Of a DNA stretch of 64,000 nt, positions 54,001-60,000 are shown one piece after another. The number at the start of each line of letters is the position of its first letter. Within the stretch, counting starts at the first letter, position 1. The stretch lies in NCBI GenBank assembly GCA_965285935.1, contig OZ260662.1, positions 93,868,001 to 93,932,000 on the forward strand, read 5' to 3'. This stretch comes from Ophelia neglecta (Eukaryota). The position numbers are program-made.

Positions 54001-57000
54001 TCATCTAGGAAAGGCCCGCCTGGAGTCAGACGGCCTATGGTGATGTAAGGGGAAGAAACTTGGCCACCGTCCCGGCCTCTAGGTTTATAATCATCTAGTG
54101 ATCATCAAGCACGAGATACGGTTAATTAACTGTGAACAGAGAACGCACTGTGGTCGCCGATTGCAGTTGTCTTGTGGTCCAGAAGCAATCTTTTATTAGA
54201 ATGACACGCATGCATCTTATCAGGAGTCTTTATAATCTCGTTTAGGCGCTTCGTTTAAAAAGATGAGCACAAACTCCATGAGTGAAAGGTGGGGTGTGTG
54301 TGTGTGGGGGGGGGGGGGCACTTCCATCACATTTGAATTCATAAAAGGGCAAATTGTGGAGCTGAATTCCACAAATATGCAAAGTACATAGTAATTTGAA
54401 ACCTTTGATCATCAGGTAAGAGTATTCTTTTGCAGTATTTATTCCCAAATAAAAGTTCCACATTTTTGGTCGGATATCTATTGATAACACAAGACAGTTT
54501 CCCTACCACAAAGGACGGCAATCCCCCTTCTCCCTAACTCAATCCCGAGCGGCACCCCTTGCCACAAATGAGGTCACAGGCCCTGCCCTTCTCCCTCTCG
54601 AGTACCATTCTAGGGTTAGTACATGTGAACGTGGAGATTCTTCTGTTTCTATGGCAATCCAATACGCGTAACAAACTCATGTAACGAAATCATGTGGACT
54701 TGCCTTTACATTGACAAACGTTCTCCCATTGCTTCTTTGCTGCAGCCAGCAAAATAGAAAGTTCTTGCAACCAGCATATTGAGTTAATAAACAACGTGAC
54801 GCTATAGGGATACAACAATGCATACAATTTATTTGTATAGAATATTGTACAGTTATTGTTTTTCGAATGCCTGGTCAAAGTGAAACATCTTATTAGAATT
54901 AAGAAATGAGCGCCATGCAAGACAGTGCTTAGTCTTTCTAGTTCCTCCACAGCCCCAAGTTATATCACAGAATTAATGTGTGGGGAGGCAGCATTTGATG
55001 GCTACACACAGCCTCTGGATCTCTGTGTGGGAGTCCCATTATGCCGATTTGGAGGATACATAATCCGGAATAAGCACCAAGCAAGGCCCTATACCAGTTT
55101 GCAGCCATCGGGCTTGGCAACTTGATGCTCGGCTAAATTGAGTTCTCATCAGTAATAGACATTTGTGTTCAATCCAGCCTCGGTAGGCAGACAGATAACT
55201 GTTTTTTCTGACTAGCAGGGACTGTTAATATCCCGTTATTCCAATCCTGGTAGTGGCTAACTCGGTATCATTTATGTATAGGTTTCTTTTTAGCGAGTCC
55301 AGGAGGACCATAAGCCAAAAGGATTGCTGGTAACAAAGCCATCAAATCCCGACAAAGTACGGTTGCTACAAAAGTGAGAATCCTGGTTGGAAGGAGGACG
55401 AATATACGTCATACATCTAACCCTGGAGTCTCCTTGTCTTGAGAGCAGTGTAATTTGCTATACTTGTGCTACAAATGCTATTATATTAACCTTCAATTCT
55501 GGAATTACTTGTTTGTCATGAACCTTGTTGTCTTCATAGCTGAGGTATATCATACGAGGTAGATGTACATTCGTTCATTTGACTCGTAGAAAACAATCAA
55601 GGAGAAGACTAAGCGTGCTGATCAAACGTTGGAATCTAGTCATATATAGATACAGTCCCAATAAGGTTTGAGTTCATATGGACAGTTCTTCACAACTTAA
55701 TGATTTTTGATAGTTTAAGTACTGGTTTTCAGTTTGTCGACAGTATAAACATTGTGTTGTTTGACCTGGATATGAATTAATCTCATTTTCTTTTCTAAAC
55801 GTATGGCTATAGGACCAGTGGTCAATATACAGAACATACTATATTATGCTTAAACGGTGGAGTAGGTGACAGCCAAATGATATTCTATATGTCAGCTTTA
55901 TTATATTCTGTTGGTGTGGCGTAACGAGTGGGTTCCGTTCCGTAATTGGCAGGAAAGCATGGAATGGAAACAAAATGAGGTGGCCTCTCGAAAACATCGA
56001 CCACGGACCATCACCCAGGCCCCGAGGAGATGACAGTAGTGATATAATGCCTCCGAACTCGGTCAAAACTCTTTCGCTTGTCCCCTGTATGACATGTAAT
56101 TATTTCATGCCCCACTCGGCCTATTCTGTAGGGGATTATATGTATCTCTGTAGACCACATTTCGCTAATCATGTGCATATTTATAGTAAAAAACATTTCC
56201 ACATTTGATTTATACTTATTTACTTTTGATAAGTCATTTCAATATCATTGTACTTTGTGCTGACAATGCAACAACTGTTGTTCTTAAATGTCAGATTCAC
56301 CTTACAGAAGAAATTTCCGTTCCTTCAACCCGGCATTGCATTAGGCAATATCTATTCTGTAAGGTCAATATTTACGAGAGTTATCGACAATAAAGGTTTG
56401 CTGATGGGAGCCCGTATTGTAATTATCCTGTCTCACACTTGTCCTTTTCCTCCCGCAGACGACTCCGAGTTAACCTTTGACCGGGCAGGCCAGTCGCCTG
56501 AAGAACGCCAATAACCAAGGAAGGAGACTTGTGAGACGCGCAATTTGAGCATCGATCCCTCGCCTTGACTCGTCGCTCTCCGAGAAGTCTCGCCACCAAG
56601 CTCCGCACTGCGTTCAGACAGCGACAGAGAGCAGACCCAGGGATTGGCAGTAACCGTGCTCCCAGACTCTCCTACATTCCAACAACCAAAAGAGTGCTTA
56701 GGACTACGAGCTATCTGAATTATCACTGAACCAAGCTACACAGAGACGCTTTTATTAGTACGCGTGGATATCTTAAAGATAATCCAGGATTTCAGCCTTG
56801 TCGTATTCCTGCGCCATTTGTGTCGTGTAGACATCAAGTTAGACGTAAGAAGTGAACAGCGAAAATTGTGCAAATCACATTGAGTGGAAAGCTCAGTAGG
56901 CCTGTTTACTAAAGTACGTGTCTGAGTGTATTTTGTCGGATCTAATCGTGTGTGTATAAAACTTGACAGGTTTTCTTAGAATTGCGATTATACAAACACT

Positions 57001-60000
57001 CTCAAAACCACTTTGCGTCGCACCGCATTGTGGGATTTTTCGTTAAACGTGAGACAGAGGACACGCGTGTTGCCAAGGTTGATCTGACATAAGGATACTT
57101 CGCACTGATAATCGGATATCACATTTCTCCAGCGTTTCGATCATACAGTAAATTTTGTGCGGTGCTGCATCTAATATATGCGCATTGATTTTCTCGCTGT
57201 GTCATTTTCCGGCATCCATCGTGTGCACTATTCAGTCCTAGTGGTCGTCTGGCTCTGCCACCGAATCCACACCTGTGTGCGCTGTTAACCGACAAGCGAG
57301 CGATAGGCGCATATGTTCCGTACATATCATCGACCAATTAACTCGGATCGTCTGCTATTAATTATTCCCGGAATATAACCCTGTAGATTGAGGACACAAG
57401 ATCAGAGAAAAAGGCGCTACCCACATTGGATAATTTGGACTCGAAATTGCCGCATAAATTACGTCCATTTGCATTTCTCCCGTTCTGTAGCTGCGGTTGG
57501 CTTGTTGACAACGCCTGGTGTTTTGTCTTTCAATAAGATATCGGATTACGGATATAACTCGACTGGATTATCTTGCCAAAGATGAAGGGTCTATTTATCT
57601 GTCTAGTAGTCTACGCGGCACTCCACTGTGGTAAGTGATCCAACCCTTTCTTCCTATTCTTCACATCATCACCCTGTTAGGTGCGCGGTATCTACAAATC
57701 TAGAGGCATTAATCATTAAAAACCCGGGCCTGATTATAAACTATTTTGCGGAAACAGCGGCACTTCCGCCATATCGTAATACCCCGCCATCATGACATTT
57801 GGTGGTCATTCATTGCAGTGAGTTACCGAGAGTCCAGGAAACTCTGGACGGTTAAATAAACCTGCCGGTAATCCCTCACCCTTTTATACGAGAAATGATA
57901 AATAAAACGTGATGCCTCAGAGAGCTAGATAAACACTCCGCCGGTGTATTGTTCTCCCCTCCAAAGCTAGGGATCAGACGGGCAGCTGGCGGGCACCCTT
58001 TAGATATCCAAGCTCATAAATACGGATCAGACTCAATTATTTTATTCAGAATGTACATCAAATTATTAAAGCATATAGCTATAATTGCCAAGCATTTATT
58101 TATAACAAACTGGAATGTGCAACTACCACCCTTTGTTTACAACAGGTACCTACTTGAATGAATGCCAAAGATTTGCTCCTGAGCTCTTTTTTTTTCAAAC
58201 AGAAATTAATGTTTTGTATTCGGATAAACAGCTGCCAGGTCACCACTGGGGTGTTCCTCATGGCTCAGTGTTGGGATCAATGATGTTTACAATGTACACG
58301 TTGCAGCGTGAAGATATTATTATACTTTATAATTCGGGTTATCAATTGTCTTATTATTATATTCATTGCAAATGCTGTATTTCACCGATAAATTATCCAT
58401 TCACAGCAGTTGGCGTCAACTAAAATCAAGTTCTTTCACAGGAAGTACATTGTTTCCCATATTAAACACCAAATAATAATGGATAGCCAGTAATTTCGGA
58501 TATTAAAACAGAAACTTATCCATCCTTCTTCTTTCGTTTGACAATTGGCATATTATGTCTGATCCTTGGGTGACTCAACCGTATATGTCTCAAGGGCATA
58601 AATAAAACTCGTTAAAACATTCTCACTTGTCTTGATTCCATCTACGGAAGGTGCATGCTCCTACTAGAGAATTATTATTGCATGCGCTGGAAAATGCTCA
58701 ATAACACTCAATATCAGGTCTGTACATTGTAAATGTACTGGTACCATTTTAACTGATGTAGCACGAAGCTTACGAGTACACTGTTGGCCAGACTACCTAC
58801 TGACCTGACATCGGCAAGGTCAGAACTCTGGGACCCAAATGATTGTTAGAACCGGAAGTGTGCACATATTACTCCATTACTACGGGAGCAGCATATTGAT
58901 GGGCTGCCCCTAAATGGAAGCATTGTGTTAAAGGTTTGTCTGATGACATATTAAAACACCACGCAGCCCATCGAATATATGTGACATGATTTCCCCGTTT
59001 GTACCATCTAGGCCTTGAGCAGCCGGTAAAAACTTGTTGGTAGAACCAAGGCAAAGAAAAAAACATTTTTGTGGTCATAAATTTTCTAAATAGTTTGCCA
59101 GTGAAATTAAGATCTGGTAAAACCATTGCATTTTTTTCTAAGCTGTTTGAAAACCTATAGTCACTTGATTATGTCAGCAAATTAATTCTTTCATAGAGCA
59201 GTGTGATTATTTTCTATACATTCAAATTAATTCTAGAATACTCTTACATTAATAGTATTGCAGAATCTTAACTTCTTGATTAAACTGTACATCTTATTTG
59301 CATCTAAGCTGGATTGCACATTAGTTATCCAATATCAAGACACATTTTGTCTTGTTGGTATTATTATGGGAAAAAATCTCCGGACAATACATTACATCAT
59401 GAGAAAACTTTTATTTGAATCTGGTGAAAAGAAACTATTTACAAAGGCAAATCAAGCCTTGTTGATATACGCGTGAATTATTTTCTTCGAGAAAACATCG
59501 CTATAAATACCATCATATAGTATAAACAGCTGTGGTCCATGTCACATGTTACAATTGCATATATATTTTTCTCACTGGAATGTATTCAGCTGATTTGCCT
59601 TTAACTGGAGCATAGCTAGGACGCGTTGATGTACTTCTACAGATAGGTTACTTTTTAGGAATTTTGCCAATTAGGGCCAAAGTAGATTTTCGCATGTTAT
59701 CGTTTTGGGCAGCGATGGTTGATTGCAATAGGACAAATCATAAACTATCAAAATGGTGTTGGAACAACTTGAAGCGTGAAGAGTATTTATCATGGGCTTC
59801 CCATCTTCATGGCCTATTTAATGTGTCAACAAGGGTGATTTGTTTGTTAACTACGGACCCATGTCCTAAAAACCATTTATGTATATGACCATGTCTGATT
59901 TCTCCAATTTTAACTTGATCAAACAGAGAGTTATGGATAGTAGTAAAACTACTTTGTTCAGATACTTGAGTATCTGTAATACTTATGAATGCCATGCTAA

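What the first reader, a model, noticed from the sequence alone, without database searches (positions are those of the whole stretch)
56407..57630. Strand-specific ATG desert marks a hidden ~1.1-kb leader exon ending in a signal-peptide exon
Seen: no + strand ATG over ~770 nt (56407-57177), while CAT (minus-strand ATG) occurs about ten times in the same span. The desert starts just before a strong acceptor (56458) and leads to an ATG in good context, 16 mostly hydrophobic codons and a GTAAGT donor. A rough base-composition estimate predicts about a dozen ATGs here. Inference: selection against upstream starts in the long 5' UTR of a translationally controlled secreted or membrane protein gene, which the ORF track misses entirely.
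Basis: partly seen in the sequence, partly recalled or inferred. Interest (0 to 1): 0.75.

Follow-up and report, generated by a model that had tools for sequence, protein, structure and literature searches.

The report
ATG-free leader before signal-peptide exon
A stretch of about 1.2 kb almost lacks ATG on one strand only and runs into a start codon, a hydrophobic signal-like peptide and a splice donor, so it is most likely the untranslated leader and tiny first coding exon of an unannotated gene for a secreted or membrane protein, which is an ordinary kind of feature.

Summary
The + strand has no ATG from 56407 to 57177: 0 seen against 11.1 expected, reached by 0 of 2000 shuffles. It has 2 ATGs in 1175 nt up to the ATG at 57582, against 21.0 expected (Poisson 1.9e-7). 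CAT is at expectation. No other stretch of the window on either strand comes close; the next best has P 0.015.

Four rare features lie at the same place:
- a top-rank polypyrimidine acceptor at 56458;
- a GC- and CpG-rich block at 56400-58000;
- a good-context ATG followed by 16 codons with a hydrophobic core;
- one of only eight + strand GTAAGT sites, at 57631, giving a phase-1 exon end.

The leader is non-coding. It shows no repeat, no Rfam match and no excess RNA structure, and it is separate from a LINE tail at about 59400-60440.

Best reading: the 5' leader and first coding exon of a + strand gene, kept free of upstream AUGs by selection. The exon layout is open. A second strong acceptor lies at 57490, a CCAAT/TATAA pair at 57334/57374, and two short uORFs in between. 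No transcript data, genome-wide copy count or second exon could be obtained. uAUG depletion and "ATG deserts" are already published, so interest is modest.

The parts
56407..57177 (+). Core ATG-free stretch of 771 nt
   Evidence: 0 ATG against 11.07 expected, with 0 of 2000 shuffles as low; CAT 10 against 12.4. Poisson 1.6e-5.
56428..56458 (+). Polypyrimidine tract ending in CAG: candidate 3' splice site (cis- or trans-spliced). Alternatively the left edge of a promoter block.
   Evidence: 17 of the 20 bases before the AG are pyrimidines, with no AG in the last 15. Only 7 of 3303 + strand AGs reach this. A CTCAC branch-like motif about 22 nt upstream can be read directly. GC jumps from 0.28-0.37 to 0.55 here.
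56459..57581 (+). Putative 5' untranslated leader (largest extent)
   Evidence: 2 ATG against about 21 expected. 13-23 stops per frame, longest open run 67 codons. No Pfam family on 10 overlapping ORFs. No Rfam match. No AATAAA or ATTAAA. Mean fold z +0.28, so no excess structure.
57178..57288 (+). uORF1: 36 codons, poor start context (T at -3, C at +4)
   Evidence: translation and context.
57313..57378 (+). uORF2: 21 codons, poor start context (C at -3, T at +4). Ends 204 nt before the main ATG.
57334..57410 (+). CCAAT (57334), TATAA (57374) and an Inr-like TCAGA near 57403: possible proximal promoter giving a leader of about 180 nt
   Evidence: This composite pattern occurs 3 times on the + strand and 4 times on the - strand of the window. 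It is a consensus match only, not shown to function.
57466..57490 (+). Second strong acceptor-like site (…ttctcccgttctgtag|CTGCGG), downstream of both uATGs
   Evidence: 16 of 20 pyrimidines, within the top 0.9% of + strand AGs. Donor-like sites upstream in the leader at 56531, 56845 and 57049.
57582..57630 (+). First coding segment: start codon plus 16 codons and 1 nt (phase 1). Encodes MKGLFICLVVYAALHC(G), the n- and h-regions of a signal peptide or signal anchor.
   Evidence: Context aaagATGa, and only 18 codons if unspliced. In-frame TAA at 57555. The hydrophobicity of its best 10-residue window is reached by 11 of 2797 ATGs in the window. Only 1 on each strand also has a GTRAGT donor in place.
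57631..57636 (+). GTAAGT 5' splice site
   Evidence: 8 GTAAGT on the + strand of the 64-kb window, and the only one between 54000 and 60000.
56400..58000 (.). GC- and CpG-rich block with sharp edges. It holds the leader, the coding segment and the first 370 nt or so of the intron.
   Evidence: GC 0.36-0.55 in 100-nt bins, against 0.27-0.37 just outside. CpG observed/expected is 1.0-1.3, against a window median of 0.77.

Best explanation
The stretch 56459-57630 on the + strand is the 5' end of an unannotated protein-coding gene. It consists of a long untranslated leader followed by a very short first coding segment.

Proposed mechanism:
- Transcripts that carry the leader are read by scanning ribosomes, which start at the first usable AUG.
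- Selection has therefore removed nearly all AUGs from the sense strand, leaving the complementary CAT untouched.
- The two AUGs that remain (57178, 57313) are in poor context and open short uORFs that end well before 57582, so leaky scanning or re-initiation can pass them.
- Translation starts at 57582 (A at -3).
- It makes a lysine-bearing n-region and a 12-residue hydrophobic core of a signal peptide or signal anchor.
- The exon ends in phase 1 at 57630|GTAAGT. The rest of the protein lies in exons not recognised in 57631-64000, probably beyond the window.

Shown here: the strand-specific depletion, the non-coding nature of the leader, and the co-location of the signals.

Inferred: transcription, splice-site use, secretion, and selection as the cause.

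My split for the layout:
- about 0.4: a leader exon entered at the 56458 acceptor, from an upstream non-coding exon or by trans-splicing. It may be further spliced to the 57490 acceptor, which would remove both uATGs.
- about 0.2: a first exon with its start site at about 56410-56460.
- the remainder is covered by the rival explanations.
For: - Depletion: 0 of 11.1 and 2 of 21.0 expected ATGs, with 0 of 2000 shuffles as low. CAT is normal. ATG is the only outlying trinucleotide (z -4.1). The next best window has P 0.015.
- Acceptor at 56458: matched by 7 of 3303 + strand AGs. The chance of one falling in the first 55 nt of the desert is about 0.006.
- Start peptide: its hydrophobicity is reached by 11 of 2797 ATGs. 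GTAAGT is 1 of 8 on the strand and lies 49 nt after the ATG. On the + strand only this ATG combines both features.
- An in-frame stop lies 9 codons upstream, and there are 13-23 stops per frame, so the leader is not an internal coding exon.
- The GC/CpG-rich block is confined to 56400-58000.
- The last 200 nt before the ATG fold less stably than shuffles (z +2.4 and +1.2), which suits scanning.
- From the literature: uAUGs are described as the major constraint on 5'UTR length (PMC3283318; start of the abstract in the listing only).
Against: - No RNA evidence of any kind could be consulted.
- No second exon was found. 23 of the 45 + strand ORFs of at least 33 aa in 57631-64000 were scanned against Pfam, and none reached a cut-off.
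- The 16-residue exon is too short for every protein search, so no annotated protein confirms it.
- The signal-peptide call rests on a hydropathy count. No dedicated predictor was run, and no cleavage site lies inside the exon.
- Two uATGs remain.
- A CCAAT/TATAA pair at 57334/57374 and a second acceptor at 57490 allow layouts in which most of the 'leader' is not in the main mRNA.
- If this window was picked from a whole-genome scan of about 10^6 such stretches, a P near 1e-7 for the desert alone is not overwhelming. The case rests on the co-located features.
- Copy number in the source genome is unknown.
Confidence: 0.62

Rival explanations
1. An ATG-desert promoter rather than one long exon. 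In this reading the GC/CpG-rich block 56400-58000 is a promoter region with several start sites. These include a proximal CCAAT/TATAA-driven start near 57403, which would give a leader of about 180 nt. The upstream part is kept ATG-free so that every start site yields the same protein. The polypyrimidine-AG at 56458 is then coincidental. The gene, the start codon and the donor are the same as in the best explanation.
For: - A CCAAT..TATAA..Inr-like composite lies 248 nt before the ATG. It occurs 3 times on the + strand and 4 on the - strand in the window.
- Both surviving uATGs lie upstream of that putative start.
- The block is roughly centred on about 57200.
- ATG depletion about 1 kb either side of start sites is published as the 'ATG desert' class. 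That class is tied to multiple start sites (passages read in PMC5580651; PMC2672154; PMC3001478).
Against: - The published class is described as mostly TATA-less, whereas a TATAA is present here.
- A complete lack of ATG over 771 nt (P 1.6e-5) implies that a large share of functional mRNAs include that stretch.
- The desert begins within 55 nt of a top-0.2% acceptor, and GC jumps exactly there.
- Consensus promoter matches are weak evidence on their own.
Confidence: 0.2
2. The block is the 5' part of a mobile element or a retroposed fragment. It would have been inserted with its own composition, and its ATG-free leader would reflect the element's own translation needs, not a host gene.
For: - The block 56400-58000 has sharp compositional edges.
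- A LINE ORF2 tail lies downstream in the same orientation at about 59870-60440, with a faint RT-motif trace at 58250-58297 (E 0.043).
- Copy number in the genome could not be measured.
Against: - There is no second copy or LTR-like repeat in the window.
- Of the 179 tblastn matches (E <= 0.01) from the 150 LINE relatives, 177 fall in 59400-60440 and 2 at 26133-26442. None falls in 56400-57700.
- The ORF after 57582 closes after 18 codons. About 670 nt to the RT trace cannot hold an ORF1 plus endonuclease.
- The leader's CpG observed/expected is 1.0-1.3, against 0.44-0.7 over the LINE region, so the two have different histories.
- A copy as decayed as that LINE tail should have regained ATGs by mutation (inference).
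- The longest ORF in the leader (100 aa, - strand) has no relative among 5.8 billion proteins. This is weak evidence.
Confidence: 0.08
3. No coding function. Either this is a chance composition feature, or it is a non-coding RNA or enhancer region in which the hydrophobic 16-codon ORF and the GTAAGT are coincidences.
For: There is no external confirmation of any kind. If the window was picked from a whole-genome scan, roughly one such desert could arise by chance. This is my estimate from the Poisson tail.
Against: - The joint occurrence of four independent rare features argues against chance: the desert, the acceptor (about 0.006), the hydrophobic start peptide (11 of 2797) and GTAAGT within 60 nt (about 0.0075).
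- The depletion is specific to ATG and to one strand.
- There are no tandem or simple repeats.
Confidence: 0.08

Closest known systems
uAUG-depleted 5' UTRs of eukaryotic mRNAs (selection against upstream start codons under the scanning model)
   Same: The sense strand alone lacks ATG upstream of a good-context start codon. The few ATGs that remain are in weak context and open short uORFs. The literature describes uAUGs as the main constraint on 5'UTR length (PMC3283318, start of the abstract seen in the listing).
   Different: The length is unusual: 771 nt with no ATG, and 1175 nt with two. That is long for a leader, and whether it is all in one mature mRNA is not known. Typical 5'UTR lengths are recalled from general knowledge and were not measured here.
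'ATG desert' core-promoter class (Lee et al. 2005, Genome Res 15:1189). The paper is not held; it is known here only through passages citing it in PMC5580651, PMC2672154 and PMC3001478.
   Same: The ATG-poor zone is on a 1-kb scale, lies next to a start codon, and sits inside a CpG-rich block.
   Different: That class is described as centred on dispersed start sites and mostly TATA-less. Here a TATAA is present and the desert starts at a splice-acceptor-like site. I saw nothing on strand specificity in the passages read.
Signal-peptide first exons ending in a phase-1 intron
   Same: A short first coding exon holds the n- and h-regions and ends in phase 1. The link between signal-peptide exons and phase-1 introns is recalled from the literature (Tordai and Patthy) and was not looked up here.
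   Different: The mature protein and the cleavage site are unknown, and an N-terminal membrane anchor fits equally well.
Long AUG-poor leaders of retroelements and structured IRES leaders
   Same: A long leader that is nearly AUG-free.
   Different: There is no element ORF after the start codon, no repeat, no Rfam family and no excess folding energy.

Membership tests
uAUG-depleted 5' UTR leader | Sense-strand ATG count far below expectation, with the antisense count normal | tested here: met
   2 against 21.0 expected, 0 of 2000 shuffles as low; CAT 21 against 22.6. ATG z -4.1, the only outlier.
uAUG-depleted 5' UTR leader | Non-coding, ending at a start codon in favourable context with an in-frame stop upstream | tested here: met
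   13-23 stops per frame and TAA at 57555. Context aaagATGa. No Pfam family on 10 overlapping ORFs.
uAUG-depleted 5' UTR leader | Present in a capped, sense-strand mRNA | not testable with these tools
Sec-type signal peptide | Positively charged n-region followed by a hydrophobic h-region of about 7-15 residues at the N-terminus | tested here: met
   K at residue 2, and residues 3-14 form the hydrophobic core. The best 10-residue Kyte-Doolittle mean is 2.81, reached by 11 of 2797 ATG-led peptides in the window.
Sec-type signal peptide | c-region with small residues at -3 and -1 and a cleavage site; positive call by a dedicated predictor | not testable with these tools
   The exon ends after residue 16 and the next exon is unknown. 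No signal-peptide predictor was on hand. The joined exon model was not built or searched.
Spliced internal or leader exon | Consensus 3' and 5' splice sites at its ends | tested here: met
   Acceptor with 17 of 20 pyrimidines, matched by 7 of 3303 AGs. GTAAGT donor, 1 of 8 on the strand.
Spliced internal or leader exon | Junction reads, or a matching upstream donor exon | tested here: inconclusive
   No convincing ATG-free upstream exon with a donor was found in 30000-56500. Junction reads are not testable here.
ATG-desert promoter class | ATG-poor zone around dispersed start sites, usually TATA-less | tested here: inconclusive
   The ATG-poor zone is present. TATAA at 57374 and AATAAA at 56389 are present. 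Start sites are not testable here.
Non-LTR retrotransposon (LINE) 5' end | Contiguous with the element's ORFs; repeated in the genome | tested here: not met
   LINE homology is confined to about 59400-60440 and 26133-26442, with none in 56400-57700. There is no intra-window copy. Genome-wide copy number was not testable.
Structured leader, IRES or known cis-regulatory RNA | Folding energy below shuffles, or a match to a curated RNA family | tested here: not met
   Mean z +0.28 over 14 windows of 150 nt, 40 shuffles each. 0 Rfam matches at the gathering score and at E <= 1.

The most novel reading that the evidence does not exclude
The whole leader of about 1.1 kb, AUG-free over its first 720 nt, is carried by the mature mRNA of a secreted peptide or protein gene. 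It is entered at 56459 by splicing from a distant non-coding exon or by spliced-leader trans-splicing. It acts as an obligatory long scanning runway, and its two weak uORFs near the end gate translation. This would be a dedicated translational switch for a secreted factor in an invertebrate. It would also show that strand-specific ATG deserts can find hidden first exons from raw sequence alone.
Probability: 0.12. Interest if true: 0.5.

Novelty: new member of a known kind. Interest (0 to 1): 0.3.

Why it matters
If it is real, this is a gene start that ORF-based tracks cannot see, because only 16 codons are coding here. It also shows that a simple test comparing ATG with CAT can flag long leaders and first exons in unannotated invertebrate genomes. 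The biology itself is established: selection against upstream AUGs, and a signal peptide on a short phase-1 first exon. The value is therefore mainly for annotation. It may also offer a clean natural example of an unusually long leader that is nearly AUG-free.

Tried and rejected
- **Search with the 16-residue exon.** I did not pad or extend the query.
- **Six-frame Pfam scan of whole stretches.** No family reached its cut-off in any of these:
  - 10 long ORFs across the window;
  - 20 more + strand ORFs downstream;
  - 10 ORFs overlapping the leader.
- **The 340-nt ATG gap at 51728-52068 as a possible upstream exon.** It is A-rich and G-poor with no donor, so I dropped it.
- **My recalled impression that 58106-58423 is a reverse-transcriptase piece.** Pfam did not support it. 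It got only a 16-residue match at E 0.043.
- **Word-indexed search of the LINE tail among longer proteins.** It found nothing. The full HMMER scan did find 265 relatives.
- **The - strand ORF 56436-56735 as a proxy for copies or relatives of the leader.** No hits.
- **Structure and repeats in the leader.** Rfam, tandem repeats, direct and inverted repeats and self-blastn all gave nothing. Folding showed no excess structure.
- **Lee et al. 2005.** The paper itself is not held.
- **Taxon of origin.** Not determined, because the best LINE relative is only 36% identical.
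Full report
**Nature of the window.** The window is 64 kb with GC about 0.37. Its median CpG observed/expected is 0.77. It has no long ORFs and no Rfam family at gathering score. From general knowledge, a CpG ratio this high is not vertebrate-like. I therefore take it for an invertebrate-type animal genome and not for human. One run of N (61437-61578) was left alone.

**Check of the observation.**
- On the + strand, ATG occurs at 56404 and then not until 57178. The next ones are at 57313 and 57582.
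- The 774-nt gap is more than twice the next longest ATG gap (348 nt). The longest CAT gap is 307 nt. Scaled by frequency, it is the largest gap of any of the 64 trinucleotides.
- With 2000 dinucleotide-preserving shuffles per segment, 56407-57177 holds 0 ATG against 11.07 +/- 2.51 expected. The segment 56407-57581 holds 2 against 20.99 +/- 3.38. No shuffle was as low in either case.
- CAT is at expectation: 10 against 12.4, and 21 against 22.6.
- The Poisson tails are 1.6e-5 and 1.9e-7. Over 56407-57791 there are 3 ATGs against 24.0 expected.
- Within the segment, ATG is the only outlying trinucleotide (z -4.1; the next is -1.7). A sliding 1175-nt test on ATG and CAT over the whole window finds nothing else below P 0.015.
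- There are no tandem repeats and no simple-sequence cause.

The finding leaves the ATGs at 57178 and 57313 unnamed. Both are in poor context and open uORFs of 36 and 21 codons that end before 57582.

**What lies at the two ends.**
- *Left edge.* The 20 bases before the AG at 56457-56458 hold 17 pyrimidines, with no AG in the last 15. Only 7 of 3303 + strand AGs do as well. The chance that one such site falls in the first 55 nt of the desert is about 0.006. GC jumps at the same point, from 0.28-0.37 to 0.55.
- *Right end.* The ATG at 57582 has A at -3 and A at +4, with an in-frame TAA nine codons upstream. It opens 16 codons with a lysine at position 2 and a 12-residue hydrophobic core.
- The best 10-residue hydropathy of that peptide is reached by 11 of 2797 ATG-led peptides in the window on both strands.
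- The reading frame closes two codons after a GTAAGT at 57631. That is one of eight on the + strand and the only one between 54000 and 60000. On the + strand, this is the only ATG that combines such a peptide with a GTRAGT donor.
- The coding part is 49 nt long, so the intron is in phase 1.

**The stretch in between.**
- It is non-coding: 13-23 stops per frame, and the longest open run is 67 codons.
- Ten ORFs overlapping it on either strand match no Pfam family at or near a cut-off.
- It matches no Rfam family even at E <= 1.
- It does not fold more stably than shuffled sequence: mean z +0.28 over 14 windows of 150 nt on the + strand, and +0.20 on the - strand. The last 200 nt before the ATG fold less stably than shuffles.
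- It contains no AATAAA or ATTAAA.
- It lies in a GC/CpG-rich block (56400-58000; CpG observed/expected 1.0-1.3) that continues about 370 nt into the proposed intron.

**The mobile-element rival.**
- The window holds no second copy of the stretch.
- A 139-residue ORF downstream (59870-60286, + strand) has 265 relatives at E <= 0.001 in a full HMMER scan of 1.84 billion representatives. The best is 36% identical.
- I scanned ten of the 150 listed hits against Pfam. All nine that are 398 residues or longer carry RVT_1 upstream of the matched part. The ORF is therefore the tail of a LINE ORF2.
- Local tblastn of all 150 listed relatives gave 179 matches at E <= 0.01. Of these, 177 fall in 59400-60440, 2 fall at 26133-26442, and none falls in 56400-57700.
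- At E <= 10, the best match in 55500-59600 is a 16-residue RT motif at 58250-58297 (E 0.043).
- The LINE region has CpG observed/expected of 0.44-0.7 and low GC, unlike the leader.
- The longest ORF inside the leader found no relative among 5.8 billion proteins. That is weak evidence.

The leader is therefore not detectably part of that LINE. However, its copy number in the source genome could not be measured, because no eukaryotic genome collection was available.

**Layout is open.**
- Donor-like sites lie inside the leader at 56531, 56845 and 57049.
- A second strong acceptor lies at 57490, with 16 of 20 pyrimidines (top 0.9% of + strand AGs). It is downstream of both uATGs and 92 nt before the start codon. 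Splicing from an inner donor to 57490 would give a mature leader with no AUG at all.
- A CCAAT (57334), a TATAA (57374) and an Inr-like TCAGA near 57403 have textbook spacing. The composite occurs 3 times on the + strand and 4 times on the - strand of the window. It would give a leader of about 180 nt that also skips both uATGs.
- No convincing upstream non-coding exon was found.

**Comparison with what is known.**
- Depletion of upstream AUGs in 5' UTRs is established. PMC3283318 describes uAUGs as the major constraint on 5'UTR length; I saw only the start of its abstract in the listing.
- 'ATG deserts' around transcription start sites have been published as a promoter class tied to multiple start sites. 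The source is Lee et al. 2005, which is not held. I read passages citing it in PMC5580651, PMC2672154 and PMC3001478.
- The present case is a member of that known kind. It is notable for its length and its clean strand specificity.
- Supplementary files of these papers were not consulted. They do not bear on the claims made here.

**What stayed unchecked.**
- The spliced model was treated exon by exon.
- The only coding exon in hand has 16 residues and could not be searched.
- The joined step was left out, so neither a protein search nor a signal-peptide prediction of a joined N-terminus was made.
- Exon 2 was not recognised. 23 of the 45 + strand ORFs of at least 33 aa downstream were scanned, without result.
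- Transcription, splice-site use, start sites, genome-wide copy number and cross-species conservation were not testable.

**Verdict.** The ATG desert is real, strand-specific and far beyond chance. It is best read as the leader and first coding exon of an unannotated + strand gene for a secreted or membrane protein (confidence about 0.6). The exon layout is unresolved. The remaining rivals are a dispersed-promoter reading (0.2), a mobile-element reading (0.08) and a no-function reading (0.08). It is a sound annotation lead of modest biological novelty.

Noticed in passing
window 59400-60440 (+), with a faint trace at 58250-58297: Decayed tail of a non-LTR retrotransposon (LINE) ORF2, in the same orientation as the proposed gene and inside its proposed first intron. 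It has 265 relatives at E <= 0.001, the best 36% identical. RVT_1 lies upstream of the matched part in all 9 long relatives scanned.
   Followed up: yes
window 26133-26442 (+): A second reverse-transcriptase fragment. It matches residues 32-134 of relative P0033 at 36-40% identity (E 1.7e-10).
   Followed up: partly
window 61437-61578: Run of 142 N. It was left as it is, and analyses skipped it.
   Followed up: no
window 56389-56394 (+): AATAAA 15 nt before the last ATG (56404) ahead of the desert. It could be a TATA-like element for a start near 56420, or the poly(A) signal of an upstream + strand transcript. No upstream gene was seen.
   Followed up: partly
window 57734-57883 and 56684-56833 (+): Two 150-nt windows fold more stably than shuffles on the + strand (z -2.56 and -2.33, 40 shuffles each). 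The first lies in the proposed intron. They were not examined further.
   Followed up: no
window 21756-21833 and 27300-27323: An imperfect 81-nt palindrome (79% identity) and a perfect 24-nt palindrome, found by self-blastn.
   Followed up: no
window 54290-54320 (+): A (GT)n run followed by a run of G. It sits inside a region of raised GC but low CpG (54000-55500; CpG observed/expected 0.45-0.63), which is the opposite of the leader block.
   Followed up: no
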